DNA of 64,000 nucleotides from an uncultured Gammaproteobacteria bacterium (GCA_964566225.1 CAZMHV010000001.1:149963-213962); one strand, 5' to 3'. Counted from the first letter of the stretch, positions 6,212 to 59,840 are shown. The notes: generated by a model from the letters alone, not told the origin. Numbers and translations are program-made.

Positions 6212-8119
6212 ATGAACACTGAAGAAAAACAAGTCAACATCAATGACGAACGTGAAGTACGTTTACATAAAGTAGCCGAACTCCAAAAAATGGGGATTCC
6301 TTCGTTTCCGGCACAAGCAAATAAAAAAGATTCTTTGGCATTTGCGCTTGAAGCAGCCGAAGGAACTGCCATTCAAACTGCAGGCCGTATCATGACCAAA
6401 CGCGACATGGGCAAACTTATGTTTTGTCATTTGCAAGACGAAAGTACTCGCATGCAAATTGCCCTCAAAAAAGATGACCTCGGCGAAGAAAAATACAAAA
6501 CATTTTCCAAATTGATTGATGGTGGAGACATTGTAGAAATTACTGGAGAAAAATTTATTACCCACAAAGGTGAACCTTCAATTTTAGTGAGAGATTGGAA
6601 GCTCTTGACCAAAGCAGTACGACCATTGCCAGACAAATTTCATGGCGTCTCAGATGAAGAATTAAGATTGCGCAAACGTTATTTGGATTTGGTCATGAAT
6701 CCAGAACTTCGTGAGATGTTCCACAAAAAATCTAAATTTTGGGATGTGACACGCACATTCATGAAAGAACATGGATTTTTTGAAGTAGAAACTCCACTCC
6801 TCGAAACAACGACTGGTGGAGCAGAAGCCACACCATTTAAAACACATCACAATGATTTTGATCTTGATGTGTATTTGCGTATTTCTGTAGGTGAACTTTG
6901 GCAAAAACGTTTGATGGCCGGAGGCTTTGAAAAAACGTTTGAAATTGGCCGCGTATTCCGCAATGAAGGTTCAAGTCCAGACCACTTGCAAGAATTTACC
7001 AACATGGAATTTTACTGGGCCTATGCCAACTACAAAGATGGCATGAAGCTCGCTCAAGAACTCTATCAGCGTATTGCGCTTGAAGTATTTGGTAAAACCA
7101 AATTTACGAGTAAAGGCTATGAATATGATTTGGCAGGGGAGTGGCCAGAAGTAGACTATGTGGGTGAAATCAAAAAACAAACGGGTGTAGATATTTTGTC
7201 TGCGACTGAAGAAGAAATGAAAGCAAAGCTGAGTGAACTCAAAGTGGTATACGAAGGACAAAATCGTGAACGTCTCACTGACACACTCTGGAAATACTGC
7301 CGCAAAAATATTGCTGGTCCTGCATTTTTGGTGAACCATCCAAAATTGGTTTCGGCTCTTTCAAAAGCACACTCAGAGAATCCAGAACTCACGGAACGTT
7401 TTCAAATTATTATTGCAGGAAGTGAAGTGGGCAATGGTTACTCTGAGTTGAACGATCCAATTGATCAACGCGCCCGTTTTGAAGTCCAACAAAAACTTAT
7501 TGAACGTGGTGACAGTGAAGCCATGATGCCTGACTGGGAGTTTGTGGAAATGCTTGAACATGGAATGCCACCAACCTGTGGATTTGGTTTTGGTGAACGT
7601 TTATTTGCATTCCTCATGGATAAACCAATTCGTGAATGTGTGCTCTTTCCGCTCATGAAACCAGAAGAAGGACAAGAATCTACCGAAGGAAAATCCAAAA
7701 AAACCATGGTGGCACATGCGGTCTTGCTCAACACTCCAGAAGTTCCAACCTGGAGTAAACTCAATGCTGCCGCACATCTTTCGGCATCACTGGCTGCCCG
7801 TGAAGGACGTAAACTCATTCATATTGATCATGCCACAACAACCGATGGTGAGTCTATTCCCATGAATATTCAACACGCCATCATGATGAAAGAAACTGAC
7901 TCACGAACCGCTCTTTTGGAACTCAAACGCAAAGCCGATGAACTTGGACTCGTGGTAACCTGTTTTACCGAAGAAATGCGTGATTCCAGTAATGACGAAA
8001 AAGTAAAAGCCAAACAAGAAGGAAAAAGTGCAAATGATATTTCTTTTCTTGGTGTATTAGTATTTGGTGAAATGAAAGTGGTCGAAAAATTGACTGCACA
8101 ATTTAGTCTTGTAAGTTAA
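6212..8119 (+). CDS. lysS: Class II lysyl-tRNA synthetase with an extra C-terminal PTH2/DUF2000-like domain of about 140 aa
   Basis: OB-fold anticodon domain and class II motifs 1-3 (FRNEG, GFGFGERL) are present. After residue ~490 the tail aligns to the peptidyl-tRNA hydrolase PTH2 fold (MVAHAV...KLNAAAHLSA...LLELKRKADELGL...LGVLVFG...FSLVS). Confidence 0.88.
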   Translation: MNTEEKQVNINDEREVRLHKVAELQKMGIPSFPAQANKKDSLAFALEAAEGTAIQTAGRIMTKRDMGKLMFCHLQDESTRMQIALKKDDLGEEKYKTFSKLIDGGDIVEITGEKFITHKGEPSILVRDWKLLTKAVRPLPDKFHGVSDEELRLRKRYLDLVMNPELREMFHKKSKFWDVTRTFMKEHGFFEVETPLLETTTGGAEATPFKTHHNDFDLDVYLRISVGELWQKRLMAGGFEKTFEIGRVFRNEGSSPDHLQEFTNMEFYWAYANYKDGMKLAQELYQRIALEVFGKTKFTSKGYEYDLAGEWPEVDYVGEIKKQTGVDILSATEEEMKAKLSELKVVYEGQNRERLTDTLWKYCRKNIAGPAFLVNHPKLVSALSKAHSENPELTERFQIIIAGSEVGNGYSELNDPIDQRARFEVQQKLIERGDSEAMMPDWEFVEMLEHGMPPTCGFGFGERLFAFLMDKPIRECVLFPLMKPEEGQESTEGKSKKTMVAHAVLLNTPEVPTWSKLNAAAHLSASLAAREGRKLIHIDHATTTDGESIPMNIQHAIMMKETDSRTALLELKRKADELGLVVTCFTEEMRDSSNDEKVKAKQEGKSANDISFLGVLVFGEMKVVEKLTAQFSLVS

Positions 8120-11042: not shown

Positions 11043-12086
11043 ATGCCACATCGAAAACTTCTCATTGCTACACAAAACCCAGCCAAAGTGAAAGAAATCA
11101 TGCACGCGTTTGAAACGCTTCCTTTTGAGCTCGTTTCACTCAGTGATTTTTCAAATATCACTGTACCCGAAGAGCCCTATAACACGATTGAATTCAATGC
11201 TATTGCCAAGGCAAAGTACTATGCTGAGCAAACTGGACTCTTGTCACTCGCCGATGATTCTGGTATTTTTGTAGATGCTCTTGATGGCTGGCCTGGAGTC
11301 CACAGCGCACGCATTGGTGAAACCGATGACGAACGAATGAACAAAGTACTCGAGCAATTAAAAGATGTGCCCAAAGAACAACGTGGTGCCTCATTTCGGT
11401 GTGTGCTCGCGGTTGTGGATCCCAAAACAAATTCCATCCACACTTCATACGGCGAAGAGCAGGGGATACTGCTTGATGCGCCAGTGCAAGAACGTCGTGC
11501 TGGCTTTGGGTATGACCCAATCTTTTTTCTCCCAGAACTCGGCAAAACCTATGCAGAAATTCCCGTGGAAGAAAAAAATAAAACCAGTCACCGTGCCAAA
11601 GCACTGCACCAAATGGAATATGTTTTAAAAAAAGAATTTGGTGCACGTCACATTGTAGTGCCCTGTGGTTTCATTATCCAAAATGGACAACTCTATTTGC
11701 AAAAACGCAACGATCCATTCAGACCAGACTACCATGCTAAATGGGAATTTCCTGGCGGCGGAGTTGAATTCGGTGAACAAATTATTTCAAATGTGATTCG
11801 CGAAGTAAAAGAAGAAACTGGTTACGAAGTAGAAGTGGTGCAGCCACTCACTCACATTCAAGTAGAACCTCAAGAATATCCAAATTTTTCCTATCAAGTG
11901 TATCTCATTCCAATGGTCTGCAAAATAGTGGGTGGAAAATTTGAAGCACGAGATCACGAAGTGATGGAAGGAAAATGGTTTGACCTTGATGAAGTGCCAA
12001 GTTTACCACTGGTAGGGAATGATAAAGAGTTTTATGAAAAAGTGGTTGATGAGTTAAAACAAGTAGTTTTAAAATTCTCTTTATAG
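11043..12086 (+). CDS. rdgB: Fusion of RdgB/Ham1 non-canonical purine NTP pyrophosphatase (N-terminal ~200 aa) with a Nudix hydrolase domain (C-terminal ~140 aa)
   Basis: Ham1 motifs (ATQNPAKVKE, SLADDSGIFVDALDGWPGVHSAR, FGYDPIF), then the Nudix box GGGVEFGEQIISNVIREVKEETGY. Confidence 0.8.
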   Translation: MPHRKLLIATQNPAKVKEIMHAFETLPFELVSLSDFSNITVPEEPYNTIEFNAIAKAKYYAEQTGLLSLADDSGIFVDALDGWPGVHSARIGETDDERMNKVLEQLKDVPKEQRGASFRCVLAVVDPKTNSIHTSYGEEQGILLDAPVQERRAGFGYDPIFFLPELGKTYAEIPVEEKNKTSHRAKALHQMEYVLKKEFGARHIVVPCGFIIQNGQLYLQKRNDPFRPDYHAKWEFPGGGVEFGEQIISNVIREVKEETGYEVEVVQPLTHIQVEPQEYPNFSYQVYLIPMVCKIVGGKFEARDHEVMEGKWFDLDEVPSLPLVGNDKEFYEKVVDELKQVVLKFSL

Positions 12087-12475: not shown

Positions 12476-13711
12476 ATGCTCGACATGAAATTTATCCGTG
12501 AAAATGCGGAACTCGTAAAACAAAATTGTGTGAATCGTCATGTAAAGGTAGACATTGACGAACTTTTGCGTTTGGATGAACAACGAAGAGAAATAATTAA
12601 ATCACTCGAAGACTTACGTGCAGAAAAAAATAAAGGATCCAAAGGAAAACCAACTCCAGAAGAAATTGCCAAAATGAAAGAGCTCGGAGAAAAGGTGAAA
12701 GAACTCGAAGCCAAACAGATTGAAATTGATGCGCAGTACCGCGAAGTACTCATGCGTGTGCCAAACATGACACACAGTGAAACTCCAATTGGTGGTGAAG
12801 ATGATTTTACAGTACTCAGTAAAAAAGAACCACGTGATTTTGGTTTTACTCCCAAAGATCACGAAGAACTCATGCTCAATCTTGACCTCATTGATTTTGA
12901 ACGTGGTGCCAAAGTCGCTGGAGCCAAATTTTATTTTGCCAAAAATGACTTGGTTCGTCTCAATCAAGCCTTGCTCAATTACGGCATGGATGTCGTGACT
13001 GCACACGGATTTACCCTCATGGAAACTCCAGACATGGCCAAACAAGAAATTCTCGAAGGTGCAGGATTTAATCCTCGTGGAGAAGAAACACAAATTTATA
13101 CCATTCAAAACACAGACCTTTGTCTTGTAGGTACTGCAGAAATTACCGTGGGAGGTTTTCACAAAGACGAAATTCTCGATCTTTCAAACGGACCAAAAAA
13201 GTATGTGGCTATGTCACACTGTTTTCGTACCGAAGCTGGAGCGTACGGCAGAACCAGTAAAGGACTCTACCGTGTTCATCAATTTACCAAACTCGAAATG
13301 TTTATTTATTGTAAACCAGAAGAAAGTGAAGCCATGCACCAAGAATTGCTCGCTATTGAACGAGAGATCTGTGATGGTCTTGGATTCCCATATCGCGTGA
13401 TTGACATCGCCAGTGGCGATTTAGGAGGTCCTGCGTACCGCAAATACGACCTTGAGGCCTACATGACCATGAAACAAGACTACGGTGAAATTACTTCAAC
13501 CAGTAATTGTACAGACTACCAAGCCCGCCGCCTCAACATTCGTCACCGCAATGCCGAAGGAAATACTGAATTCGTGCACACACTCAATGGTACTGCCGTG
13601 GTACTCAGTCGTTTTCCCATTGCCATTTTAGAAAATTATCAAAATGAAGATGGAAGTATCACTGTTCCAGAAGTGCTCCGCAAATATATGGGAAAAGATA
13701 TTATTAAATAA
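12476..13711 (+). CDS. serS: Seryl-tRNA synthetase
   Basis: N-terminal long coiled coil plus a class II core (motif 2 FRTEAG..., motif 3 GSGLA-like region). Confidence 0.9.
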   Translation: MLDMKFIRENAELVKQNCVNRHVKVDIDELLRLDEQRREIIKSLEDLRAEKNKGSKGKPTPEEIAKMKELGEKVKELEAKQIEIDAQYREVLMRVPNMTHSETPIGGEDDFTVLSKKEPRDFGFTPKDHEELMLNLDLIDFERGAKVAGAKFYFAKNDLVRLNQALLNYGMDVVTAHGFTLMETPDMAKQEILEGAGFNPRGEETQIYTIQNTDLCLVGTAEITVGGFHKDEILDLSNGPKKYVAMSHCFRTEAGAYGRTSKGLYRVHQFTKLEMFIYCKPEESEAMHQELLAIEREICDGLGFPYRVIDIASGDLGGPAYRKYDLEAYMTMKQDYGEITSTSNCTDYQARRLNIRHRNAEGNTEFVHTLNGTAVVLSRFPIAILENYQNEDGSITVPEVLRKYMGKDIIK

Positions 13712-13715: not shown

Positions 13716-14441
13716 ATGAAAGACCAAACACTCGTGATTGTTCCAGGTTGGGGAGGAAGCCATGAAACATGGGAAAAATTTATGGTGGCTGCACGTCCGC
13801 ATTTTCAAGATGTGGTGTGTATTGATTTACCTTGTTTTGGTGGAAATGCTTGCCCAAAAACTGTGTGGGGTGTTGAGCAGTATGCTGAATACGTCAAATT
13901 AAAAATAAATAAAATTAAAGAAAATACATCAAACGAAATAATTCTCATGGGACACTCATTTGGTGGACAAGTTTCTGCCTACCTGGTTGCAAACAATCCC
14001 CACATTTGCGATAAATATATTCTCAATGCAGGAGCTGTATTTCGTCCCAGTCGTCCTATTCGTCGCGTATTTTTTTGGCTCTTGGCCAAGACAGGAAAAC
14101 TCGTTTTCAAAATTCCCATGATAGAACATGCTGGTGTGTGGGCCAAAAAAATGCTCTATAAAACTGCAGATTCACCAGATTATAGCAAAACCAGTGGCAT
14201 CCAAACCGAAATTTACAAAAAAATTATTCGCCAAGACCTCACCAATGAGCTCCCGAAAATCACCACTCCAACATTGATTGTGTGGGGAACCCTCGATAAA
14301 TATCTTCCGCTCAAAGATGGAATAAATGCCCAAAAACTCATCAAAGATTCAAAAATAGAAATCATTTCAGGCGGAACGCATGGTTTGCACCTGTTTAAAA
14401 CAGAAGAACTTTTACAAAAGGTAAAAGATTTTGTACAATAA
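13716..14441 (+). CDS. Alpha/beta-hydrolase fold protein
   Basis: Nucleophile elbow GHSFGG, and an HG-like segment near the C terminus. The start was moved to the first Met after the serS stop. Confidence 0.7.
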   Translation: MKDQTLVIVPGWGGSHETWEKFMVAARPHFQDVVCIDLPCFGGNACPKTVWGVEQYAEYVKLKINKIKENTSNEIILMGHSFGGQVSAYLVANNPHICDKYILNAGAVFRPSRPIRRVFFWLLAKTGKLVFKIPMIEHAGVWAKKMLYKTADSPDYSKTSGIQTEIYKKIIRQDLTNELPKITTPTLIVWGTLDKYLPLKDGINAQKLIKDSKIEIISGGTHGLHLFKTEELLQKVKDFVQ

Positions 14442-14446: not shown

Positions 14447-16045
14447 ATGCCGACACTCTTGGTGGGAACAATTTATATACTCTGGCTTTTGAGCGCGCTT
14501 GTAGAGTACGCTGATTATTGTTCTCTTTGGCAACTCAAAGAATATCGTCGAGATCGATTTCGTGATTTCATGTCTACTGAGCAGGGGAAACGATACTTTA
14601 TTCGTTTTTCTTTTGTGTATCGTTTTTTAGCACTCTTTGCTGCTGTTTTTTGGCCAATAAATGATACTGAAAATATTCAGTTATTATTTTTGGGTGTACT
14701 TGCTTGTGATTTTTTTTATTTCATTTTTCGATTTTTTCGATATGGTTTGAAACGTCCCAAGCTTACCGTGAAGGCACTTCTTATTATACTCACATCAATG
14801 GCAGTAGGAGGGAGTATATTTTTTTTCAGTCAAGATTGGGTACTTCCATTTTTTCTTTTGGTAAGTCGGTTTTTTATCCTTACTGCTGTCGTGGCATTGT
14901 GGGAGTTGCCTACACGTATCTCCAAAAAATATCTTATTGCTTCCGCAACAAAAAAAATGAAAAATTATCCCAAGCTTACGGTTATTGGTATTACAGGCAG
15001 TTATGGAAAAAGTTCAGTCAAAGAATTTACATCACACCTTCTCTCACAAAAATATAATATTATCAAAACACCCAAAAATACCAATAGCGAAATTGGTATT
15101 GCCAAATTTATTTTACAAACAAATTTTTCAGAAGCTGATTTTTTTGTAGTAGAAATGGGAGCCTATACAATGGGAGAAATCAAGCTCATTTGTGATATGG
15201 TTCAACCTACCATAGGTGTACTTACTGCTGTTGCCGAGCAGCACCTTTCGCTTTTTGGGAGCATGAAAAACATCCAAACTGCCAAATATGAATTGTTGCG
15301 TTCTCTGCCACCGACTGGTCTTGTCATAACCAATGCTGACAACCATTACTGTACCGAATTACTTTCTGAACTTCAATGCAAAAATGTCATCACATTTGGT
15401 ACAGACGAAGAAAAACATCCAAATTGTCTTACCACAGATATTCGAGCTACTACCCGAGGAACAGAATTTGAAGGCACATTTGATGGTCATACCGGACGAG
15501 TTTCCACACCGGTTATTGGCGCTCATCATGCTTACAATATTGCCCCTGCAGCGATTATTGCTCTTCGTTTTGGCCTCACACGTGAACAAATTGAACATGG
15601 ATGTGCCACACTTCCTACGGATATTCATGGTTCATTGCAAATTTATCACTATGGCGCGGCAATCATTGTTGATGATAGTTACAATTCCAATCCACAAGGA
15701 TTTAAATCAGCGCTTGATGTGTTGGCTTCGTATTCATCTGAGAGAGAACGTATTGTTATCACTCGTGGTATGCTTGAACTGGGTGAAAAATCTTTTGAAA
15801 TGCACGAGCGTATTGGAGAAGAAATTGCTTTTGCGGCTGATCAATTGGTAGTGATTACACCAGATTTTTTGGAGCCACTGCAGCGTGGTGTTGGTCAAAA
15901 ATATCGCACCAAGGTTTTATTTATTGATGAGCCTGAAAAACTTTTGCAATATTTACAGACGTTGAAAGAAAAAAAATGTGTGGTCTTACTTGAAAATCGT
16001 CTTCCAGCAAATATTGTTTCTGAATTATCAACCTATCATTCATAA
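14447..16045 (+). CDS. MurF-like Mur ligase whose N-terminal substrate-binding domain is replaced by a ~170-aa polytopic membrane domain
   Basis: Five predicted TM helices, then the Mur ligase P-loop VIGITGSYGKSS and the C-terminal MurF/Mpl signature DDSYNSNP. Confidence 0.72.
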   Translation: MPTLLVGTIYILWLLSALVEYADYCSLWQLKEYRRDRFRDFMSTEQGKRYFIRFSFVYRFLALFAAVFWPINDTENIQLLFLGVLACDFFYFIFRFFRYGLKRPKLTVKALLIILTSMAVGGSIFFFSQDWVLPFFLLVSRFFILTAVVALWELPTRISKKYLIASATKKMKNYPKLTVIGITGSYGKSSVKEFTSHLLSQKYNIIKTPKNTNSEIGIAKFILQTNFSEADFFVVEMGAYTMGEIKLICDMVQPTIGVLTAVAEQHLSLFGSMKNIQTAKYELLRSLPPTGLVITNADNHYCTELLSELQCKNVITFGTDEEKHPNCLTTDIRATTRGTEFEGTFDGHTGRVSTPVIGAHHAYNIAPAAIIALRFGLTREQIEHGCATLPTDIHGSLQIYHYGAAIIVDDSYNSNPQGFKSALDVLASYSSERERIVITRGMLELGEKSFEMHERIGEEIAFAADQLVVITPDFLEPLQRGVGQKYRTKVLFIDEPEKLLQYLQTLKEKKCVVLLENRLPANIVSELSTYHS

Positions 16046-16053
16046 ATTTTTTT

Positions 16054-17310
16054 GTGTTAAAGCCATTATTTACTGGATTCATGCCAAATCTAAAGTCTGA
16101 AGATGTTGTAAAGGCGTTGTCTTTTTTGGCTCCTTGGAATGCATCAAAATTGCAGCAAGGAAATGCTGAAAAAAAAGTAGAAGAGTGGTTACAAAATTTT
16201 TATACAGGTTCCTCTGTTTTTTGTTTTGATAGTGGAAGAAGTGCACTTTATATAGCACTCAAAGCCTGCGAACTTGAACCTGGAGATGAAGTCTTGGTCC
16301 AGGCCTATACTTGTGGAGTCGTGAGTAATGCTATTGTGTGGAGTGGTGCTAAACCAGTATATGTAGACATTACTACAAATTTCACCATGGATGCTACTGA
16401 TCTTGAGAAAAAAATTACTCAAAAATCAAAGGTACTTATTATTCAACACACTTTTGGTATTCCTGCAGATATTGATGCACTTCAAGCACTTGCCAAACAG
16501 CATAATCTGCTCATAATTGAAGATTGTGCCCATGTTATGGGAGGAACATATCAAAATCAACTTTTGGGCACTTTTGGCGACATTGGCATGATGAGTTTTG
16601 GCACTGAAAAACCCGTCTCTTGTGGACGTGGAGGGGCGCTTCTGACCCAAAATTCAGCATTGGCACAAAAAATTTCTGCGTTACAAAGTTCACTCTCCTA
16701 TGCTCCAAAATCCGTTATCCAAAAACAACTGTTTACATTTGTAGTATTTTTTGTCAGTAAACCATTGTATTTTTGGGGAGTAGGGAAGTGGGTTCTTGGA
16801 TTATTCAAAAAGTTCAATCGTATAAGCAAAATTATTGAACCCCAAGAAAAAAGAGGAGAAAATCTTCCTTTTTATCCGTCACGACTTCCACATGCTTTGG
16901 CATATATTTTATTGAATCAGTTGTCTTCGTTGCAACAGTTCAATACTGTGCGACATGAGAGTGCCACCTACTATAAAACTGAGCTTGAATCAACTTCTTT
17001 TGTTCCTTCAAGTATACGAGAGTGTGATGAAATTATTTATTTTTTACGTTTTCCATTACTCGTACCAAATCCTGCCGAGCTCCATACTTTGGCCAAAGAA
17101 CAGGGGATTTTACTCGGGGATTGGTACTCCACTCCTATTGCACCTGCTGATGTACATGCTGAGCGTATGGGGTATGTTGCCAAGAGCTGTCCTGTGGCCG
17201 AAAAATTAGCCGCACAGTCAATTAATTTACCAACGCATTATAGTCTTACGCCTTCAGATCGAGAACGAATCGTCAAACTTGTACAAATGTATGCACGTTC
17301 AAATCATTAA
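16054..17310 (+). CDS. DegT/DnrJ/EryC1/StrS family PLP-dependent aminotransferase
   Basis: Family-typical N-terminal half (GDEVLVQAYTCGVVSNAIVWSGAKPVYVDI, AHVMGG), with the C-terminal part consistent with the sugar aminotransferase fold. Confidence 0.78.
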   Translation: MLKPLFTGFMPNLKSEDVVKALSFLAPWNASKLQQGNAEKKVEEWLQNFYTGSSVFCFDSGRSALYIALKACELEPGDEVLVQAYTCGVVSNAIVWSGAKPVYVDITTNFTMDATDLEKKITQKSKVLIIQHTFGIPADIDALQALAKQHNLLIIEDCAHVMGGTYQNQLLGTFGDIGMMSFGTEKPVSCGRGGALLTQNSALAQKISALQSSLSYAPKSVIQKQLFTFVVFFVSKPLYFWGVGKWVLGLFKKFNRISKIIEPQEKRGENLPFYPSRLPHALAYILLNQLSSLQQFNTVRHESATYYKTELESTSFVPSSIRECDEIIYFLRFPLLVPNPAELHTLAKEQGILLGDWYSTPIAPADVHAERMGYVAKSCPVAEKLAAQSINLPTHYSLTPSDRERIVKLVQMYARSNH

Positions 17311-18310
17311 AAATACAACAGATTGGGAACAATTTTTTTGCACGCAACCCTTTACTCCATTTGTTCAGTCTGGTCGTTATATTGATTTTTATAAACATTT
17401 ATCCGAAGATGGATTTATTTTGGGTATTTACGAAAAGGATACGATTATTGGTGGATCCGTGGTGGTTACCACTCATGCCAAACGTGGAAGTTTTTTGTAT
17501 TTGCCGTATGGTCCTTTGTTACCTGCACAGCAGACCAGTGAAGCTTTGGGTCTTTTTTTGAAATTTCTTACGGACTATGGGCGAGAAAAAAAATTCGATT
17601 TTATACGGGTAAGCCCATTTTTGGACGAAACTCTCACCACAAAAAATTTGTTTGAAACACATGGATTTCGTTCTGCTCCCATGCACGTGCTTGCCGAAAA
17701 TACCTGGCTTCTCGATGTAACTCCGAGTGAAGATGTATTGCTTCAAAACATGAATAAAAACCATCGTAATCTCATCCGTCGCTGTGAACGTGAAGGAGTT
17801 ATTATCAAGCAAACAACACTGCCTTCACATTTGTCTGGACTCAGTGATCTGCTCGATATTACAGCCAAACGTCATGGGTTTAGACGTTTTTCTGCAGAGT
17901 ATATTGAACAAGAATTCAAGAGTTACCTCCCTGACCATGTTGTTTTATTTGAGTCGTTTTTACCCGATGGTACCCTCGACGGAGCTGCTGTTATTATGTT
18001 TTATCATACCATGGCAGCATATAGGCACAGTGCGTCTTTGGGTCTTAACTCCAAACTTCCTACATCGTATTTACTTCAGTGGCGAGTGATACAAGAAGCC
18101 AAAAAAAGGGGAATGCACTGGTATAACTTCTGGGGTATTGCGCCCGAAGGATCTTCTTCAGAGCATCCATTTTTTGGTATAACTCATTTCAAAAAAGGTT
18201 TTGGAGGAATCAAAAAAGATCTTCTGCATTGTCATGATTATCCTCTCACCTATCGATATTGGCTCAACTGGATGGTTGAAACCCTGCGTCGTTTCAAACG
18301 TGGATTCTAA
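17279..18310 (+). CDS. FemAB/FemX-family aminoacyl-tRNA-dependent peptidyltransferase; start may be 17291
   Basis: C-terminal FemAB signature (YLLQWRVIQEAKKRGMHWYNFWGI...FKKGFGG). Confidence 0.72.
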   Translation: MYKCMHVQIIKNTTDWEQFFCTQPFTPFVQSGRYIDFYKHLSEDGFILGIYEKDTIIGGSVVVTTHAKRGSFLYLPYGPLLPAQQTSEALGLFLKFLTDYGREKKFDFIRVSPFLDETLTTKNLFETHGFRSAPMHVLAENTWLLDVTPSEDVLLQNMNKNHRNLIRRCEREGVIIKQTTLPSHLSGLSDLLDITAKRHGFRRFSAEYIEQEFKSYLPDHVVLFESFLPDGTLDGAAVIMFYHTMAAYRHSASLGLNSKLPTSYLLQWRVIQEAKKRGMHWYNFWGIAPEGSSSEHPFFGITHFKKGFGGIKKDLLHCHDYPLTYRYWLNWMVETLRRFKRGF

Positions 18311-18311
18311 T

Positions 18312-19316
18312 ATGAAAAAAAGCCTGTTCAACCCTTACAAGTTAAAACGAAAAGTAAAACGTGGTGTGTTTTCATCACAGCACGGTGTTGGTATTGACGA
18401 ACGACTCTCTCTTCGTCCATTTGATGGAGAAAAACGTTGGAGTCGAAATCCCTATGAACCTCGTCCTGCACAAGCACTCAAACGAAAAGTAGAAGTGGGA
18501 ATTTTTGTCGTATCACTGCTGACAATTTTTGGACTTTGCTTTTTTCATCCATATTTTTCAATTCGTGTGTATTCAGTCTCTGGACTTCACCGAATGAATG
18601 AAAGTGTTCTCACTCAATCAATTCAACATCAACTTGAAGGAAAAAAATATTTTGTTTTGAACAAAAATAACTATTTTGCTATTGATGTCTCCAAAGTACG
18701 AGATAATTTACTCAGTGAATATTCTTTTCAATCAATTCGAATTCAAAAGAAGTTTCCACATACGCTTGCGGTTGAAGCAGTTGAGAAAACACCGGTGTTT
18801 TTGTATGACAGTGGCAAGGAATACACCCTTATTGGTGAACAGGGAGAAAAACTTGAAGTTATTCGTGCTGTGGGTCCAGATGAGTGGAGTGTTGTTTCAC
18901 GTATGGTGAGTTCTACCAGCAGTACCGCAGAAGGATTTGCACAGCAAGAAATAGTAAGTCAAACACATCGTCCCAATACGGCCAACTTGGTTGTCGCCGG
19001 AGTAAGTTATCCTATTTTATTTGATGCACGTGAAATTTCACAAAGCCGTGAGTATATATTTCCAATTCATATTGTTCAAGGTATAAAAAAATGGAATGAA
19101 TTTCTCATATCCAAAGGCATGCCTCTTTCTTTTATTGAAATGCAAGGTGGGGGAGAAGAGGGGTATATTCATTCAACCAGTGGTTGTAACATTGCTATGA
19201 AGTTTGCTGATGCGGATATTGCTTTTCCTGTATTTTTGTCGCTTTTGCCACAAATTGATAAAAAGACATGTCAGTATGTGGATATGAGATATTTGAGTCG
19301 GGTGTATTGGAAATAA
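18312..19316 (+). CDS. ftsQ: Cell division protein FtsQ/DivIB-like (POTRA domain)
   Basis: Basic cytoplasmic N terminus, a single TM, then POTRA-like IRVYSVSGLHRMNESVL...FPHTLAVEAVEKTPVFLYD. The start was trimmed to the first Met after the femX stop. Confidence 0.62.
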   Translation: MKKSLFNPYKLKRKVKRGVFSSQHGVGIDERLSLRPFDGEKRWSRNPYEPRPAQALKRKVEVGIFVVSLLTIFGLCFFHPYFSIRVYSVSGLHRMNESVLTQSIQHQLEGKKYFVLNKNNYFAIDVSKVRDNLLSEYSFQSIRIQKKFPHTLAVEAVEKTPVFLYDSGKEYTLIGEQGEKLEVIRAVGPDEWSVVSRMVSSTSSTAEGFAQQEIVSQTHRPNTANLVVAGVSYPILFDAREISQSREYIFPIHIVQGIKKWNEFLISKGMPLSFIEMQGGGEEGYIHSTSGCNIAMKFADADIAFPVFLSLLPQIDKKTCQYVDMRYLSRVYWK

Positions 19317-32356: not shown

Positions 32357-33721
32357 ATGTCAAATAAGCCACAAAAACCAATTCCTCCCCTCCCCTATCC
32401 TCTTTCACGCAAAACTCGGGTGGCTATTATGCTGACTTTGCTGAGTGTCTTTTTGATTTTGACTCCTGTTATTGTGATGTATGCCCGTGGATATACCTAT
32501 GATTTCAAAGAAAAAACCCTTATCCATGGAGGAGCCCTGAGTATTGAAACCACCCCCCGAGACGTTACTATTTCAATGAATGGTATCACCCTCAGTACTC
32601 TCCCCCCAGTGCGTTTACCAAATGTTTTGCCTGGGAATTATCACATAAAAATTGAAAAGGACGGATACTTCACTTGGGAAAAAAATATTTCTTTGGTGAG
32701 CAATCAAACCACCTATCTCCACGATATTGATTTGTTTCCTCAGCAAAAACCTGAAATGGCAATAACAAATGCCAACAATATTGTTCGTTTTTTTGCGTCT
32801 CCAAGTGCAAATGCTCTTTTGCTTTTGCGAAAACAGGGAGAAAATTTTGAATTGTCGCTCTACAACCCACTTCTTTCGCAAGAAACTTTTATCACCAAAA
32901 TTCTCTCTCCCAAGGTACCACCTCAAGTTGAGTGGTCACCAAGTGGTGAATTGATACGTATTGAATCAGTACGTGGAAATGAAAAAAACATCATGCTGCT
33001 CAATCCACTGAATCCAACCCTCATACAAACCAATAGTACCTCGAGTGAGGCAAACCAAATATTTCAATGGGAAGAAGGGTTACTTTCTACCGCACTTCTG
33101 TTGCAAGAAGGTACACAAATTCAAAGAATTGATTTAAATTCACTCCGTACGGTTTTTGATGTTACGCCATCTACTACCTCTTGGTACGCAGAAAATCAAA
33201 ATATTCTATGGCAGTATGCAGATCATACACTGAGTAAATACAAAAATGGAGTTGAAGTTTTTTCTGTACCTATCAAACAAAGTATCACTTCATTTTTGCA
33301 AACCAATCAAAACAGAATTCTGGCAACCAACGGAAGTAATTTGGTTATGATGGTACTCAAAGAAGATGGTACGGTAGAAGAAAATGAACTCCCCCTTTCG
33401 CATATATCCATGGTCAAAGACCAAGACTATTACTTAGCATGGCAAAATGGTGAACTGTGGGCTTTGTCTCCAGAAGGCACCGCGACACTTATCAATCGTT
33501 TCAGTGACGATATTATGTCAGTTATACCACTGACCAAAAGTGGCACCTTGCTGATTGCTACCCAAAATAAACTGTATACATTTCATCCTCGATACTATAT
33601 CACTCACGAACTTGTTTCCGCCGAAAATATTGAACGCGTGAGTGTTGATACCAGTAGTCGTCAAATCTTTTTTTTGGGAACGGTTGAAGGAAAAAATGCA
33701 GTTTGGAAGTTGGGGTATTAG
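32357..33721 (+). CDS. Membrane-anchored PEGA-domain protein with a large C-terminal beta-rich domain
   Basis: TM helix followed by a PEGA-like segment (DVTISMNGITLSTLPPVRLPNVLPGNYHIKIEKDGYFTWEK). The start was moved to the first Met outside the murA overlap. Confidence 0.55.
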   Translation: MSNKPQKPIPPLPYPLSRKTRVAIMLTLLSVFLILTPVIVMYARGYTYDFKEKTLIHGGALSIETTPRDVTISMNGITLSTLPPVRLPNVLPGNYHIKIEKDGYFTWEKNISLVSNQTTYLHDIDLFPQQKPEMAITNANNIVRFFASPSANALLLLRKQGENFELSLYNPLLSQETFITKILSPKVPPQVEWSPSGELIRIESVRGNEKNIMLLNPLNPTLIQTNSTSSEANQIFQWEEGLLSTALLLQEGTQIQRIDLNSLRTVFDVTPSTTSWYAENQNILWQYADHTLSKYKNGVEVFSVPIKQSITSFLQTNQNRILATNGSNLVMMVLKEDGTVEENELPLSHISMVKDQDYYLAWQNGELWALSPEGTATLINRFSDDIMSVIPLTKSGTLLIATQNKLYTFHPRYYITHELVSAENIERVSVDTSSRQIFFLGTVEGKNAVWKLGY

Positions 33722-36700
33722 GCAGCGTTACTTTGCCAGTCGTAGTTGGGAGTTGAATCAAGTTCTAAGTTTTCTTTTGTATTTTTTAGACTTACCCAGT
33801 ACACTTTCTCACCAGGGATAGTGTATTTTTGATTTACGTGACTTCCGCCAATGGTATCCACGTACTCGGTATCTCCAGGTCCACCGTAGGATACGAGTTG
33901 TCCATCGTACGGAGGAAGGATTTGGTTGGGTCGAAATTTGGCAGATACCACCAAATCTATGCCCATTTTGGTTGCTTTTTCTTGAGCGAGACGGAATAAC
34001 AGTTCATTACTGGTTTGAACAGAAGCGTCACTGCGGTGATAGCTGTGTTCCATGTTAATAACAGGTTTCTCCGCTTCTTCATCGTACAAAATTCTCATAA
34101 TGGCACGAGAAACAATATCGCCGGCTGCATCACGAACTACCACTGTTTTTACTTTGCCATCCATTAAGTAAGAAATAAGATTTCGGTTGAGACTTGGAGT
34201 ACCGTTCACATTCTGACAGGAACCAACCACATCAGTTCCCATACGTAACATAAGGTCAGGGTCTTCGGTTTCTTCAGCATAGAGTCCAGCAGTGGTATTT
34301 TGCACTGCTGGTTTTTCTTTTTGGAGTTCTCCAATGACGGTTTCCATATCACTCACATCTTGTAAAAATTGTGAGCCTTCGGTAAACGCTGCTTTTATTT
34401 CTGCCAGTAATTCAGATATTTTCTTTTCTTGCATGCCAGTCGAAGTTTTTTCTTTTATTATTCCTTCTTTGAATTGCTCCACTTTGAGTGACAAAAGTTT
34501 CATTGTGTTGTACAAAGCCACTGCTGTTTTTTCTGAAGCACTCAGATTTTTTTCTTTTTCAAAAGCGGCAACTTTGTCTTGCCAAACTTTTCTTATTTTG
34601 GCGCGTTCGATATCAGTACTCTCTAAGTACTGTTCCATAACTTCTTTAAATTCACCTTCAACGTGACTATGACGAATAGCTTCGGTAATAAATTCTTTGA
34701 CACGTTGTTTTACCATCATTTCACTATTTTCTGAAGTATCCGTCACTTCTCCTTTGTGGGAGAGTCGTGAGTCCATTTTCCACAATTTTTCTAAACGTGC
34801 GTCTCCGTTGAAAACTTTATCTAAATGTTCTCGGTGTTCATATCTTACGTGTGAAAGATTTCCTTTGGCTACTGCTTCAATGAATTTTTGAAACAAGGCA
34901 CGTTGGTGAGGGTATGCTTCCAATTTTGCTAAGTACACTACTACCAACTGAGGATTTTTGAATCTTTCAAGAAAACGATTGACTTCTTCTTTGCTAAGTT
35001 CAACTCCACACTTTTCGGCAAACAATTTTGGTACAAGATCTGAGAATTCATTGACAACTTGCTCTAGTTGCTGCTGTAGCACCTGAGCCGCTTGCTTTTT
35101 GTGCTCTGCCAAATCACGACCTTCAGGACCACGTGCTATTTGAGATTGTTTTTTTCTTATTTTTTGTTCAACTTTTTTGTATTGTTTTTCGTCATCTTGC
35201 ACAGTTTGTAGTTCTGCTGAAAGTGCCACTATCTCAGCTTGCAGGGGCTCTGACCATTCTTGTTTTTTTGCATTCAAAAAGTTACCATAATTTTGGTGTA
35301 CTTCCAAAAGTTTATTATTCATGAGAGTGAGTCCCTGACGAAAAAATGAACCTTGCAAAAAGGAACAACTTCTGAGGAGTTGACTCATTTCAAAAACTTT
35401 TTTCTTACACTCAGGGACTGCTTCCATAAGAGGAGTCGATCGATTGACAAAATTTCTTATATCATTTGCTTGTATCCCTTCACGAGTGATCTTATCTTGA
35501 TCTATTTTCTCATGCATTTCAACTAAAAAATATAAAAATCTGTCTTTATCTGTCTGTTTCTTGAGTACTTGTCCACTAAACATGTGGCCTGAAAACTCTT
35601 GTGCTTCTTTCACACTAAAATTAAAACTATTTGCTAGGAGGTGAAGTACTGGATATGTAGCTTCAGGGAAAGATTTAAGAATTTCTGCACTACAAGCCAG
35701 TGGAGACTGTTCAAAGATGTGAAATAAACGCAAACGTAAATTTTTATTGGCCAGAGCTTCTTGCGCTCCAATCATAGATAAAATAGAACGAATTTTATCT
35801 TGAGGAGAAAGAATTCTGAAATTTTCTTTTGCTCCTGTTACTTCCTCTGCTTTTTTTATGTGCTTTGCTATTTCTCCTACTTGTGCCCAGGCAAAGTCAA
35901 AATCTCTGTCAGTATTCAAATGTTTTTTTATAATATCGGCAATAACTTTACCACCTTGTTCTTCAAGCAAAGTCATTCTTCTGAGCAAGGATTCCCGCAT
36001 CTTCAAAGCAACATCAGTAGGCATTCTGTAACAGAGTGACCAGTCAAATGGTTGCTCTGGATTTTCGATTGCTTCTTGGAGAGCAGACTTAAATTTATTT
36101 ACATAGATTTCACAGCTTTCTTTGCCGCCTGTTTTAAATAAAAATTCTGACTCTGTATAATTATTGACACGGTGCTTAATACTCAAATGGTCTTCGGGCT
36201 GCTTTTCTGAAGATACAATCTCTAGGTTGTTACTTTGACCAATATAACGTGCCAAACAGGTTTGTTCTTGATCAGGAGTAAGCTCAATCACGCCTGCTTC
36301 CTGGTGCCAAAAAATGAGTCTTGCAGCCATACCATCGGTACAGATAGGAACCAGAGCGTCGGCTATTTTTTGACGGTATTCGGTAAGTCTTGTATCACTA
36401 AATGAAGTATCTAACAGTATCTCTACAACAGATACTTCTTGAGAGTCAATAATTCTTTGAACTATTTGGGGTATGAGTTCATTATCAACCTTATTTTTAC
36501 CATACGTGCTTCGAAGTATAATAAGTAAATTTTCAGCAGTTCCTCTTTCTAAAAGAGAACGGACAAAAAGAGAGTCGTCTTCTCGTGAAAATTCAACATT
36601 TTGATTTTGATGTCCAAGTCCACCAAGTATATCCATGAGCAGAGCTGAGCTTCCTACTTCAGCTATTCTCTTTTTTAAAATTTGTTGCTCTTGGGATGAA

Positions 36701-42100: not shown

Positions 42101-42181
42101 GGTGGGTGTCTTATACAGGTTTTGCTTTTCCCACTCTGCTTGCCACTTTGGTTCAATTTCTTTGGGGTTGTATTGATTCAT
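39158..42181 (-). CDS. leuS: Leucyl-tRNA synthetase carrying a ~215-aa inserted RBBP9/YdeN-type serine hydrolase domain
   Basis: HIGH (HVGHAE), CP1 editing motifs (TTRPDT, AHDERD) and KMSKS (KMSKR) are all present. Residues ~436-655 align to the PF06821 family (HFHPWLGEKL, GRSLS, TTDPYI, NAGHFGAQDGFVEFP). Confidence 0.9.
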   Translation of the reverse strand: MNQYNPKEIEPKWQAEWEKQNLYKTPTNVTPENKMYILPQLPYPSGSGLHVGHAEVYTACDIYARYQRMMGKKVLQVIGWDSFGLPAENYAIKTNVHPRVSTNAAIDNFRSQIKGLGISVDWDREVGSHNSDYYKWTQWFFLLMYKQGLAYRKNQNVNWCDSCKTALANEQVTGEGKCERCDTVVVQRPMEQWYLKITDYADKLLEGLDRIDWPEETKMRQRNWIGRSEGAEVDFPVLQTAKNIRVFTTRPDTIFGATYLVVAPEHALVPELQSLITNWDEVKKYIDETKLKTDMDRQTQKEKSGVELKGLKAVNPVSGEEIPVWMADYVFASYGTGAIMAVPAHDERDFEFATKFGLTIRQVVKGPDMEITNQPHTGSGHLTNSDFLNGLSVEEAKKKIIEHLEQREIGTRKVQYKLRDWSVSRQRFWGAPIPMLHVENVSPELLEQYQQAPSSVLQLHAWGSSPADHFHPWLGEKLRAKNINVSTPELPEANLPVFEKWQAVAEPVVGDGNSIVIGRSLSCWNALKLAETHKLRKLVLIAPTLPTDIWYTNIRNFCDGDNMWEMLKTFMSTPVDFQKVQENVGEVVVILSTTDPYIDLASTQQFFNQHLPFARVTRMRNAGHFGAQDGFVEFPQLLQEVLAPVRMDLKALPETDLPVILPDDVDFKPTGQSPLMYAESFNAGVEEKYGKGWKREPDTLDTFMCSSWYYYRYLDPKNDGAFASPEALKTWMPVDFYLGGEEHVNGHLLYSRFFTKVLYDAGYITFDEPFTKTRHQGLILGEDNRKMSKRWGNVINPTDVINEYGADTMRVYEMFMGPLEQTKPWNTDSVKGVRRFFDRVWKLQEKVTASAAPSSEAERTVHLTVKKVGEDLSNMQYNTAIAKMMELVNVLSKEETIAPEHFELFIKILAPFAPHIAEEMWANQGHTDSVTIQPFPTHDAAKIVSDTLTIVVQVNGKVRASLEVDANITEEDITAQAIAQENVQKFLDGKTPQKVIYVKGKLVSIVV

Positions 42182-49680: not shown

Positions 49681-50367
49681 ATGCCTTTCATTCTTATCAA
49701 CAAAGAAGCTGGGTGGACCAGTCATGACGTGGTTGGATATTTGCGCAAAGTCACCCGCCTCAAAAAAATTGGCCATGCCGGAACCCTGGACCCATTTGCT
49801 ACGGGTTTGCTTATTGTTGGCATTGGACGGGACGCTACCAAGCGCCTCGATGAATTTAAAAATAAAAAAAAGACGTATGAGGCCACGGTGCATTTGGGAG
49901 CAGTGAGTGATACCTATGATAGCACCGGAATTATAACCCCTACTGGGGCAAATATAAAAAGTATTCAAAAAGAACAAATTGAGCTGTTACTAGCACAATT
50001 TTTTGGTACTCAAGAGCAAATTCCACCTATGTACTCTGCCAAAAAAGTAGGTGGTGAAAAATTGTATGACCTGGCAAGAAAAGGTATAGAAATAGAGCGC
50101 AAACCCCATACTATTACCATCGAGAGTATTCGCCTTGGAGAAATCAAGGACAATGAATTTACTCTACAAGTGACCTGCTCGCCTGGGACCTATATTCGTA
50201 CCCTAGTGCATGATATTGGAAGTAAACTTGGCGTAGGCGCCTACTGTGAGACGCTCAAACGAACAGCCATTGGTGAATTTTTGGTTGAGAGTGCCCATGA
50301 AGTAAAAACCCTCACCCGTGAAAATTGGGAGACCGTGTGCTTTGACCTGCCCACCTTGTCCCCATGA
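49681..50367 (+). CDS. truB: tRNA pseudouridine(55) synthase
   Basis: Catalytic Asp motif GHAGTLDPFATGLL. Short form lacking a PUA domain. Confidence 0.9.
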   Translation: MPFILINKEAGWTSHDVVGYLRKVTRLKKIGHAGTLDPFATGLLIVGIGRDATKRLDEFKNKKKTYEATVHLGAVSDTYDSTGIITPTGANIKSIQKEQIELLLAQFFGTQEQIPPMYSAKKVGGEKLYDLARKGIEIERKPHTITIESIRLGEIKDNEFTLQVTCSPGTYIRTLVHDIGSKLGVGAYCETLKRTAIGEFLVESAHEVKTLTRENWETVCFDLPTLSP

Positions 50368-59835: not shown

Positions 59836-59840
59836 AAAAT

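What the first reader, a model, noticed from the sequence alone, without database searches (positions are those of the whole stretch)
14447..19316. Cell-wall cluster with a membrane-anchored MurF-like ligase next to DegT, FemX and FtsQ
The 532-aa protein keeps the Mur ligase ATPase core (VIGITGSYGKSS) and the MurF/Mpl C-terminal signature DDSYNSNP. Its N-terminal UDP-MurNAc-tripeptide-binding domain is replaced by ~170 aa with five predicted TM helices. It is followed, with overlaps, by a DegT-type PLP aminotransferase, a FemAB/FemX tRNA-dependent peptidyltransferase and an FtsQ-like protein. A membrane-tethered Mur ligase suggests ligation onto a lipid-linked precursor, or a non-canonical stem-peptide or cross-bridge modification pathway.
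Basis: partly seen in the sequence, partly recalled or inferred. Interest (0 to 1): 0.55.

Follow-up and report, generated by a model that had tools for sequence, protein, structure and literature searches.

The report
Membrane-embedded MurF cell-wall ligase
This gene encodes the enzyme that adds the last two amino acids to the bacterial cell-wall building block, in an undescribed form embedded in the membrane and always paired with a small hydrolase; the form is widespread, occurring in candidate-phyla bacteria, many gut Firmicutes and Poribacteria.

Summary
Window 14447-16045 encodes a 532-aa protein with five N-terminal membrane helices (about 172 aa) followed by MurF central and C-terminal domains. 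The canonical N-terminal domain, which binds the UDP precursor, is absent. This is not a frameshift: independent assemblies and more than 700 sequence clusters share the architecture. The membrane domain has no Pfam family and no PDB fold match. Residues Q29, Y33, P104 and T107, on the predicted cytoplasmic side, are conserved across phyla.

The ligase is most likely the housekeeping MurF, not an accessory enzyme. In Poribacteria it sits in the murF slot (murE-hydrolase-ligase-ddl-mraY). In 40 of 41 non-CPR loci it lies next to ddl. In CPR relatives it lies in arrays with mraY, murD and ftsW, with no other murF nearby.

A cytoplasmic alpha/beta serine hydrolase (13716-14441) lies directly upstream in 66 of 74 loci with room. 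DegT, FemX and the FtsQ-like gene are a CPR-specific extension occupying the position ddl holds elsewhere.

Whether the substrate is UDP-linked or lipid-linked is unresolved. So is whether the same genome also has a canonical murF. Verdict: a new variant of a known enzyme, testable in cultured Firmicutes.

The parts
12476..13711 (+). Seryl-tRNA synthetase, a conserved upstream neighbour in CPR relatives
   Evidence: Pfam context in relatives. A SerRS lies upstream in 26 of the 31 CPR-type loci that have room. Any link to the tRNA-dependent FemX is speculative.
13716..14441 (+). Cytoplasmic alpha/beta serine hydrolase (241 aa), the most constant partner of the ligase
   Evidence: Abhydrolase_1 E 1e-20. 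The public gene call is 241 aa. The triad S81/D194/H222 is 99-100% conserved across 71 sequences from several phyla. It lies directly upstream of the ligase in 66 of 74 loci with room. The best NCBIfam match is the EstV-family lipase at 81.7 bits against a cut-off of 300. It has no signal peptide or TM segment (sequence).
14447..14962 (+). N-terminal five-helix membrane domain of the ligase (residues 1-172)
   Evidence: Hydropathy; AlphaFold2 pLDDT 93; positive-inside charge pattern. No Pfam family: only 1 of 30 members gives any hit. No PDB fold match, best E 3.3. The domain profile finds 721 clusters, nearly all of them 500-570-aa ligases.
14528..14569 (+). Conserved predicted-cytoplasmic loop-1 motif WQLKEYRxDRFRDF (residues 28-41)
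   Evidence: Q29, K31, Y33, R34 and D36 are invariant in 34 CPR sequences. Q29 (99%) and Y33 (97%) are conserved in 74 sequences across phyla.
14750..14773 (+). Conserved predicted-cytoplasmic loop-3 motif KRPxxTxK (residues 102-109)
   Evidence: P104 is 95%, T107 97% and K102 80% conserved across phyla.
14990..15559 (+). Mur ligase central (ATP-binding) domain, residues 182-371
   Evidence: Pfam E 5e-41. P-loop G181-S190, E236, H266 and K280 are conserved. K280 aligns with E. coli MurF K202.
15659..15988 (+). Mur ligase C-terminal domain, residues 405-514, carrying DDSYNSNP
   Evidence: Pfam E 6e-12. D409, N415, E444 and L445 are conserved.
16054..17310 (+). DegT/DnrJ/EryC1-family PLP aminotransferase with a conserved insertion (about residues 213-275)
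   Evidence: Pfam E 1e-66. No NCBIfam equivalog reaches its cut-off. K186 and D157 are conserved, and so is the insertion (Y239, G244, E265, K266). It lies next to the ligase in 27 of 32 CPR-type loci and in no non-CPR locus.
17291..18310 (+). FemAB/FemX-family (tRNA-dependent) peptidyltransferase, short form of 339 aa
   Evidence: Pfam FemAB 110.9 bits. The PDB best match is S. aureus FemX 6snr, E 4.5e-7. It lies downstream of the ligase in 31 of 32 CPR-type loci.
18312..19316 (+). FtsQ/DivIB-like bitopic membrane protein (334 aa)
   Evidence: POTRA_1 scores 21.3 bits, below the cut-off of 23. NCBIfam FtsQ gives E 1.6e-7. A homolog follows FemAB in at least 19 CPR loci. The public gene call is 334 aa.

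Best explanation
The 532-aa protein is most likely this organism's MurF, the ATP-dependent enzyme that adds D-Ala-D-Ala to the MurNAc-tripeptide precursor. It is an integral-membrane variant.

[quoted passage not shown] ATP activates the stem-peptide carboxylate as an acyl-phosphate, and the dipeptide then attacks it. The canonical domain 1, which normally binds the UDP precursor, has been replaced by a five-helix membrane domain with N-out, C-in topology. Its conserved loops (Q29/Y33 and K102-P104-T107), placed on the cytoplasmic side by the topology prediction, are inferred to take over recognition of the precursor's carrier end.

This holds the active site at the inner face of the membrane, near MraY. 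I consider UDP-MurNAc-tripeptide the more likely substrate, with the product handed directly to MraY.

A co-conserved cytoplasmic serine hydrolase works with the ligase in an unknown role. In CPR bacteria the operon continues with a DegT aminotransferase (role unknown), a FemX-type transferase and an FtsQ-like protein. The FemX-type enzyme would add a side-chain amino acid from aminoacyl-tRNA to the pentapeptide precursor.

Shown: the architecture, its conservation and the gene context. Inferred: the enzyme activity, the substrate carrier, and the roles of the loops, the hydrolase and DegT.
For: Identity of the core:
- MurF is by far the best family: TIGR01143 scores 253 bits, against 72 for MurE, 63 for MurD, 40 for Mpl and 19 for PgsB.
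- The best PDB sequence and fold matches are all MurF: 1gg4 at E 6e-39, and 4qf5 and 3zl8 at E 1e-24 to 1e-26.
- Catalytic residues are conserved: the P-loop, E236, H266, K280 (aligned with E. coli K202) and DDSYNSNP. The Lys at this position is carbamoylated and essential in MurD, MurE and MurF (PMC3060825).

A real fusion:
- Homologs of 514-545 aa cover 95-100% of the query.
- The N-domain profile finds 721 clusters, essentially only in ligases of this length.
- All 80 genome loci have the P-loop near residue 180 behind hydrophobic helices.

Housekeeping role:
- Poribacteria L047 reads rsmH-ftsI-murE-hydrolase-ligase-ddl-mraY-murD-ftsW-..-murC, with no other murF. Four more Poribacteria loci are alike.
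- ddl is adjacent in 40 of 41 non-CPR loci.
- CPR L054 holds MurE, MurC, MurD and MraY plus this ligase as the only MurF-like gene.
- CPR L086 and L087 place it in one array with mraY, murI, murD, ftsW and murG, with no canonical murF within 21 kb. L070 and L012 also have dcw genes nearby.
- RefSeq names the Waltera intestinalis member MurF.

Topology and functional loops.

Hydrolase partnership.
Against: - No biochemical data exist.
- Whole genomes could not be scanned, so a second, canonical murF in the same genome is not excluded. The window itself has none.
- The protein falls below the TIGR01143 curated cut-off (253 against 288.6) and lacks the domain that normally binds the UDP precursor (PMC6522912). 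Use of the UDP-linked substrate is therefore an assumption.
- In CPR loci ddl is never adjacent (0 of 32), and I did not verify ddl elsewhere in those genomes.
- The obligatory hydrolase has no place in the textbook MurF reaction.
Confidence: 0.68

Rival explanations
1. The chemical step is the same but the carrier differs. The membrane domain binds undecaprenyl-pyrophosphate-linked MurNAc-tripeptide (lipid I or II), so D-Ala-D-Ala is added after MraY at the membrane surface. The lipase-like hydrolase might belong to that membrane-side process.
For: - The domain that binds the UDP precursor in other Mur ligases (PMC6522912) is missing. It is replaced by a membrane domain whose Lys/Arg-rich, conserved loops face the cytoplasm.
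- The N-domain is never found apart from this ligase, so it looks more than a simple anchor.
- Precedent from my own knowledge: MurT, a Mur-ligase-fold enzyme without domain 1, acts on lipid II. MurT structures appear among the fold matches.
- The hydrolase's nearest named family is a lipase.
Against: - There is no direct evidence.
- Gene order (murE-ligase-ddl-mraY) is the classical one.
- From my own knowledge, MraY is not known to process tripeptide precursors efficiently.
- Conserved Gln, Tyr, Lys and Thr in the loops could bind a uridine diphosphate equally well.
Confidence: 0.2
2. It is an accessory MurF paralogue that coexists with a canonical MurF. It would serve a non-canonical modification, such as an alternative C-terminal dipeptide or depsipeptide or a cross-bridge, with the hydrolase acting as an editing or trimming enzyme. 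In CPR, DegT and FemX would supply or decorate the unusual residue.
For: - Whole genomes were not scanned.
- A VanX-like dipeptidase lies near the module in Waltera.
- In CPR, DegT and FemAB replace ddl at the adjacent position.
- A serine esterase could act on D-Ala-D-Lac-type esters (inference).
Against: - It occupies the only murF slot in five Poribacteria dcw clusters.
- It is the only MurF-like gene in the CPR dcw-like arrays L054, L086 and L087.
- CPR genomes are about 1 Mb and rarely keep paralogues of Mur ligases (own knowledge).
- The family is very large and spans several phyla.
Confidence: 0.1
3. It is an annotation or assembly artefact: an upstream membrane-protein gene joined to a truncated murF by a frameshift.
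For: None found.
Against: - The same ORF appears in independent assemblies.
- The architecture is conserved at 29-69% identity in hundreds of clusters and in cultured isolates.
- AlphaFold2 gives a confident single-chain model, pTM 0.82.
Confidence: 0.01

Closest known systems
Canonical soluble MurF (UDP-MurNAc-tripeptide:D-Ala-D-Ala ligase; E. coli 1GG4, T. maritima 3ZL8, A. baumannii 4QF5)
   Same: [quoted passage not shown] The P-loop, Mg-binding Glu, the Lys equivalent to K202 and the DDSYNxNP motif are present. Relatives sit next to ddl and in the murF slot of dcw clusters.
   Different: Domain 1 (about 85-100 aa) is absent. It is replaced by a 172-aa five-helix membrane domain with its own conserved motifs. 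The protein scores below the TIGR01143 cut-off. It is always paired with an alpha/beta serine hydrolase.
MurT of the MurT/GatD lipid II amidotransferase
   Same: It has the Mur-ligase fold without the UDP-binding N-domain, and it acts at the membrane face on a lipid-linked precursor (own knowledge). It is a weaker fold match than MurF.
   Different: MurT has no TM helices, carries a DUF1727 C-terminal extension and needs GatD. None of these is seen here. Sequence similarity is far lower than to MurF.
Natural Mur chimeras (MurE-MurF, MurC-Ddl, MurD-FtsW and others; PMC10214165)
   Same: They are architectural variants of Mur ligases, interpreted as a means of channelling intermediates.
   Different: Those are fusions of whole pathway enzymes. 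Here a domain is swapped for a membrane domain. That survey treats MurC-F as cytoplasmic and does not mention a transmembrane MurF.
FemX (Weissella) and FemXAB (S. aureus) aminoacyl-tRNA-dependent transferases
   Same: The window's 339-aa protein matches Pfam FemAB at 110.9 bits. Its length is like Weissella FemX (own knowledge) and far shorter than the 420-426-aa S. aureus proteins it aligns with.
   Different: It is far below the FemX equivalog cut-off (21 bits against 500). The donor amino acid and the acceptor are unknown.
ddl-murF operons of Firmicutes such as Bacillus subtilis (own knowledge)
   Same: The ligase is adjacent to ddl in 40 of 41 non-CPR loci.
   Different: Here the order is hydrolase-ligase-ddl and the MurF is membrane-embedded. 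In CPR, ddl is replaced at that position by DegT and FemAB.

Membership tests
MurF (TIGR01143) | Mur ligase central domain with an ATP-binding P-loop | tested here: met
   Pfam Mur_ligase_M at 182-371, E 5e-41. GITGSYGKSS is invariant.
MurF (TIGR01143) | Mur ligase C-terminal domain with the DDSYNxNP motif | tested here: met
   Pfam Mur_ligase_C at 405-514, E 6e-12. The motif lies at 409-416 and is conserved.
MurF (TIGR01143) | Closer to MurF than to any other Mur-ligase family | tested here: met
   253 bits for murF against 72 for murE, 63 for murD, 59 for murC, 40 for mpl, 35 for cyanophycin synthetase and 19 for PgsB. The top PDB hits are all MurF.
MurF (TIGR01143) | Score at or above the curated family cut-off | tested here: not met
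   253.4 bits against a cut-off of 288.6. Only model positions 61-403 of 418 are matched. The Poribacteria, Waltera and L054 members also score 228-254 bits.
MurF (TIGR01143) | N-terminal domain 1, which binds the UDP precursor | tested here: not met
   No match to model positions 1-60. E. coli MurF aligns from its residue 99 and T. maritima MurF from residue 71. Residues 1-172 form five TM helices.
MurF (TIGR01143) | Conserved Lys that is carbamoylated in MurD, MurE and MurF | tested here: met
   K280 aligns with E. coli K202. It is invariant in 34 sequences and 89% conserved in 74. Its role is taken from PMC3060825; carbamoylation itself cannot be tested here.
MurF (TIGR01143) | Gene context of the D-Ala-D-Ala branch or dcw cluster | tested here: met
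   Met in relatives: the murE-...-ligase-ddl-mraY order, ddl adjacent in 40 of 41 loci, and CPR arrays with mraY, murD and ftsW. In the window itself the neighbours are a hydrolase, DegT, FemAB and an FtsQ-like gene, with MreBCD-PBP2 10 kb upstream.
MurF (TIGR01143) | ATP-dependent addition of D-Ala-D-Ala to UDP-MurNAc-tripeptide | not testable with these tools
   Requires an enzyme assay.
MurF (TIGR01143) | Being the only murF in the genome | not testable with these tools
   There is no other Mur ligase in the 64-kb window.
MurT (lipid II amidation) | DUF1727 C-terminal domain and a GatD partner | tested here: not met
   Pfam gives no such domain. The neighbours are a hydrolase and DegT, not a glutamine amidotransferase.
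PgsB/CapB, Mpl, cyanophycin synthetase | Family-level profile match | tested here: not met
   19.4 bits against 222.7 for PgsB, 39.6 against 388.7 for Mpl, and 35.1 against 850 for cyanophycin synthetase.
DegT/DnrJ/EryC1/StrS aminotransferases | Family profile plus the PLP-binding Lys and Asp | tested here: met
   Pfam 225.7 bits. K186 and D157 are at least 90% conserved in 29 sequences. No equivalog cut-off is reached: PseC scores 157 against 423. The substrate is unknown.
FemAB family | Family profile match | tested here: met
   Pfam FemAB scores 110.9 bits against a cut-off of 24. The FemX equivalog scores 21 against 500, so that test is not met.
FtsQ/DivIB | POTRA domain following a single TM helix | tested here: inconclusive
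   POTRA_1 scores 21.3 bits, below the cut-off of 23. NCBIfam FtsQ scores 30.8 against 353. A hydrophobic segment VEVGIFVVSLLTIFGLCFF precedes it. No ftsA or ftsZ lies downstream.
Alpha/beta hydrolase fold | Fold profile and a Ser-Asp-His triad | tested here: met
   Abhydrolase_1 scores 74.9 bits. S81, D194 and H222 are 99-100% conserved. The specific subfamily is unknown: EstV lipase scores 81.7 against 300.

The most novel reading that the evidence does not exclude
The last cytoplasmic Mur ligase step is carried out on the membrane in a large part of the bacterial world. An integral-membrane MurF has exchanged its UDP-precursor-binding domain for a lipid-facing five-helix domain. It ligates the terminal dipeptide onto lipid-linked MurNAc-tripeptide, that is, after MraY. 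The co-conserved serine hydrolase would be an obligatory part of the reaction cycle. In CPR bacteria the ddl position is taken by a DegT aminotransferase and a tRNA-dependent FemX, hinting at a non-Ddl supply or decoration of the stem-peptide end.
Probability: 0.15. Interest if true: 0.9.

Novelty: new variant of a known kind. Interest (0 to 1): 0.62.

Why it matters
MurC-F are described as soluble cytoplasmic enzymes with three domains, and MurF is an antibiotic target (PMC10214165, PMC6522912).

Here a large, cross-phylum MurF lineage lacks the UDP-precursor-binding domain. It is embedded in the membrane and is invariably partnered with a serine hydrolase. The lineage includes CPR/Patescibacteria, abundant gut Lachnospiraceae and Erysipelotrichaceae, Poribacteria and others.

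This raises three questions:
- How is the precursor recognised?
- Does the pathway order or its channelling to MraY differ?
- What does the hydrolase do?

The variant occurs in cultured strains (Waltera intestinalis, Eubacterium yurii ATCC 43715), so these questions can be answered by experiment. Uncultured CPR organisms are not needed for that.

It also matters for annotation. These proteins miss the curated MurF cut-off and could be scored as absent. It matters for inhibitor design as well, where inhibitors target MurF domain interfaces.

Tried and rejected
- Frameshift or fusion artefact: rejected.
- PgsB, Mpl, cyanophycin synthetase or MurT identity: rejected on scores and domains.
- Hydrolase-ligase gene fusions (Rosetta-stone evidence): none found. 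The long ORF in L063 is a GC-rich over-extension.
- Genes inserted between DegT and FemAB in some CPR loci: a miscellaneous set (MgsA, XseA, M20 peptidase, CvpA/CAP, MBL, PKD, Ldh_2) that tells nothing.
- Homolog search with the hydrolase: only generic names, such as 'alpha/beta hydrolase' and 'pimeloyl-ACP methyl ester carboxylesterase'. PDB sequence hits were also generic.
- Extending beyond the window on its own contig: the look-ups returned only short Logan contigs or nothing.
- Literature: six searches for a membrane-anchored or transmembrane MurF, or for CPR MurF and FemAB, found nothing relevant. Neither the Mur-chimera survey nor the Erysipelotrichales peptidoglycan-gene paper mentions it. 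The Parcubacteria genome paper notes only that peptidoglycan genes and a Fem-type gene are common.
- Promoter and terminator scan of the operon: not different from shuffled sequence for promoters, so uninformative.

Full report
**What is in the sequence**

Window 14447-16045 (+) is a 532-aa ORF. Its product is identical to a public gene call (P0001). The same ORF is found in two independent Logan assemblies.

Residues 182-371 and 405-514 are the Mur-ligase central and C-terminal domains (Pfam E 5e-41 and 6e-12). Residues 1-172 contain five hydrophobic segments.

AlphaFold2, run on a 34-sequence alignment, gives a confident model (pLDDT 89.7, pTM 0.82). It shows helices 4-30, 54-68, 74-98, 108-127 and 132-171, plus two short helices at 35-51.

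Lys and Arg are concentrated in loop 1, loop 3 and the linker helix, with means of 6.6, 3.1 and 6.0. They are nearly absent from the N-terminus, loop 2 and loop 4, with means of 0, 0 and 0.6. This places the N-terminus outside and the ligase domains in the cytoplasm.

The operon is tight, with all junctions short or overlapping:
- SerRS ends at 13711.
- Hydrolase: 13716-14441.
- Ligase: 14447-16045.
- DegT: 16054-17310.
- FemAB: 17291-18310.
- FtsQ-like: 18312-19316.

These starts match the public gene calls of 241, 418, 339 and 334 aa.

**What kind of ligase it is**

Among NCBIfam models MurF is far ahead. TIGR01143 scores 253 bits, against 72 for MurE, 63 for MurD, 59 for MurC, 40 for Mpl, 35 for cyanophycin synthetase and 19 for PgsB.

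The match starts only at model position 61 of 418. That is why the score stays below the curated cut-off of 288.6.

Against solved structures, all the best sequence hits are MurF. E. coli 1gg4 (E 6e-39) aligns from its residue 99 and T. maritima 3zl8 from residue 71. Foldseek with the full model gives MurF first (4qf5 E 3.5e-26, 3zl8), then MurE and MurC.

[quoted passage not shown] So the domain assigned to precursor binding is the one missing here.

The catalytic set is intact. This includes K280, which aligns with E. coli K202, the Lys that is carbamoylated and essential in MurD, MurE and MurF (PMC3060825).

**The fusion is real, old and widespread**

The 120 best homologs are 514-545 aa long and cover 95-100% of the query.

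A profile of the N-domain alone was searched against 1.84 billion cluster representatives. It finds 721 clusters at E<=1e-3, and almost all are 500-570 aa ligases; the rest are fragments. The domain is therefore not seen apart from this ligase.

In all 80 loci kept, the P-loop lies about 180-200 residues from the start, behind hydrophobic helices.

These loci are not only CPR (Magasanikbacteria, Nealsonbacteria, Staskawiczbacteria, Yanofskybacteria, Wildermuthbacteria and MAGs labelled Saccharibacteria). They also include:
- Firmicutes: the cultured Waltera intestinalis and Eubacterium yurii ATCC 43715, plus MAGs of Lachnospiraceae, Oscillospiraceae, Erysipelotrichaceae and Bacilli;
- Poribacteria;
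- a Bryobacteraceae MAG and a Synergistaceae MAG.

The 90%-identity cluster of the Waltera protein has 6672 members, and RefSeq names that protein MurF.

A 74-sequence alignment across phyla keeps Q29 (99%), Y33 (97%), P104 (95%), T107 (97%) and A167 (99%) in the N-domain. Q29, Y33, P104 and T107 lie at or beside loops 1 and 3, which the topology places on the cytoplasmic side; A167 lies in the cytoplasmic linker helix. The domain is therefore more than a generic anchor.

It has no Pfam family and no PDB fold match (best E 3.3).

**Gene context says it is the MurF step**

In Poribacteria locus L047, Pfam annotation gives rsmH, ftsI, murE, alpha/beta hydrolase, this ligase, ddl, mraY, murD, ftsW and murC, with no other murF. 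Four further Poribacteria loci look the same.

The loci fall into two classes.

| Feature | Non-CPR loci (42) | CPR-type loci (34) |
|---|---|---|
| ddl directly adjacent | 40 of 41 with room | 0 of 32 |
| DegT directly after the ligase | none | 27 of 32 |
| FemAB downstream | none | 31 of 32 |
| SerRS upstream | none | 26 of 31 with room |

 In Waltera a VanX-like dipeptidase also lies nearby.

Yet the CPR clusters are linked to dcw genes:
- L054 carries MurE (379 bits), MurC (356), MurD (340) and MraY, with this ligase as the only MurF-like gene.
- L086 reads S11 carboxypeptidase, mraY, murI, murD, ftsW, murG..., SerRS, hydrolase, ligase, DegT, FemAB.
- L087 reads hydrolase, FemAB, ligase, DegT, Maf, FemAB, FtsQ-like..., murD, ftsW, murG.

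No canonical murF appears in any of these 21-kb stretches. L088 likewise shows no murF upstream of mraY.

In the window itself, MreB, MreC and PBP2 lie 10 kb upstream and MurA lies 15 kb downstream. No other Mur ligase is present.

**The overlooked partner**

An alpha/beta hydrolase of about 240-260 aa lies immediately upstream of the ligase in 66 of 74 loci with room. That is 28 of 31 CPR-type, 36 of 39 ddl-type and 2 of 4 other loci.

Its Ser-Asp-His triad (S81, D194, H222) is 99-100% conserved across 71 sequences. So are family-specific residues W12, W51, Y56, D155, Y156 and W190. It has no signal peptide or TM segment.

Its nearest named family is the EstV lipase, at 81.7 bits against a cut-off of 300. 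PDB and homolog searches give only generic esterase names. No fusion with the ligase was found. Its role is unexplained.

**The CPR-specific genes**

DegT keeps the PLP Lys (K186) and Asp (D157). It carries a conserved insertion of about 50-60 aa (213-275, partly hydrophobic; Y239, G244, E265 and K266 conserved) that is absent from solved sugar aminotransferases. It reaches no equivalog cut-off, so its substrate is unknown.

The FemAB protein is a short FemX-type member (Pfam 110.9 bits). Its best solved relative is S. aureus FemX, at E 4.5e-7.

The FtsQ-like protein has a TM segment and a sub-threshold POTRA match. It follows FemAB in many CPR loci.

**Most likely mechanism**

The protein performs the MurF reaction at the inner face of the membrane. 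The conserved cytoplasmic loops replace domain 1 in holding the carrier end of the precursor. The product passes to MraY, and FemX then adds a side-chain residue.

- Shown: the architecture, its conservation and the context.
- Inferred: the enzyme activity, the carrier and the role of the loops.

The main rival keeps the chemistry but puts it on lipid-linked tripeptide. This is consistent with the loss of the UDP-precursor-binding domain and with the MurT precedent (own knowledge), but it has no direct support. An accessory-paralogue reading is made unlikely by the dcw evidence. It is not excluded, because whole genomes could not be scanned.

**Novelty**

Databases already name these proteins MurF. 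However, six literature searches found no description of a transmembrane MurF or of the hydrolase partnership. A 2023 survey of Mur architectures found none either.

I rate it a new variant of a known kind, of moderate to high interest. It contradicts the 'soluble three-domain Mur ligase' picture for a large set of bacteria, and it is testable in cultured strains.

Noticed in passing
window 39158-42181 (-): This leucyl-tRNA synthetase (1007 aa) carries a Pfam Ser_hydrolase (PF06821) match at residues 458-638 (E 8e-12). The match lies between the editing and anticodon-binding domains, so an alpha/beta hydrolase domain sits inside an aaRS.
   Followed up: no
window 33718-38883 (-): A 1721-aa ORF has no Pfam match at E<=1e-4.
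   Followed up: no
window 6212-8119 (+) and 11043-12086 (+): Two fusion proteins. One is a class II Asp/Lys-type aaRS with a C-terminal DUF2000; the same fusion occurs in L002. The other is a Ham1 (ITPase) + NUDIX fusion, conserved in L001 and L002.
   Followed up: partly
window 12476-13711 (+) and CPR loci L001-L078: A seryl-tRNA synthetase lies directly upstream of the hydrolase-ligase pair in 26 of the 31 CPR-type loci with room. That is unusually stable synteny for an aaRS. It may relate to a Ser-tRNA-dependent FemX, but this is speculative.
   Followed up: partly
window 16690-16878 (DegT residues about 213-275): The CPR DegT subfamily has a conserved, partly hydrophobic insertion that is absent from solved sugar aminotransferases.
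   Followed up: partly
L087 1-6888 (Staskawiczbacteria contig, 738 kb): Two FemAB genes flank the ligase (hydrolase-FemAB-ligase-DegT-Maf-FemAB-FtsQ-like). A CAP-domain protein and a sortase lie just downstream, before murD-ftsW-murG. L037 and L045 also have a second FemAB upstream.
   Followed up: no
L086 7064-9892: In this CPR contig mraY is preceded by an S11 D-Ala-D-Ala carboxypeptidase and followed by glutamate racemase, then murD. This is a non-classical dcw order.
   Followed up: no
L004, L006, L024, L054, L070, and L044, L046, L077, L079-L081: Several MAG titles conflict with the gene content of the loci. Examples are 'uncultured Gammaproteobacteria', 'Bacteroides sp.', 'Muribaculaceae' and 'Staphylococcus sp.'. 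The loci show CPR-type or Firmicutes-type operons, so these records are probably mislabelled.
   Followed up: no
window 50001-52000 and 58001-60000: Two patches have GC 0.51-0.52 against a background of about 0.39. They hold two ORFs without Pfam hits (50475-51068, 51338-51943) and a PNP_UDP_1 phosphorylase (58016-58966).
   Followed up: no
window 62504-63964 (-): A Schlafen-group-3-like helicase (PF09848, E 9e-103) lies at the AT-rich end of the window. The exact product is not on record in the contig collection.
   Followed up: no
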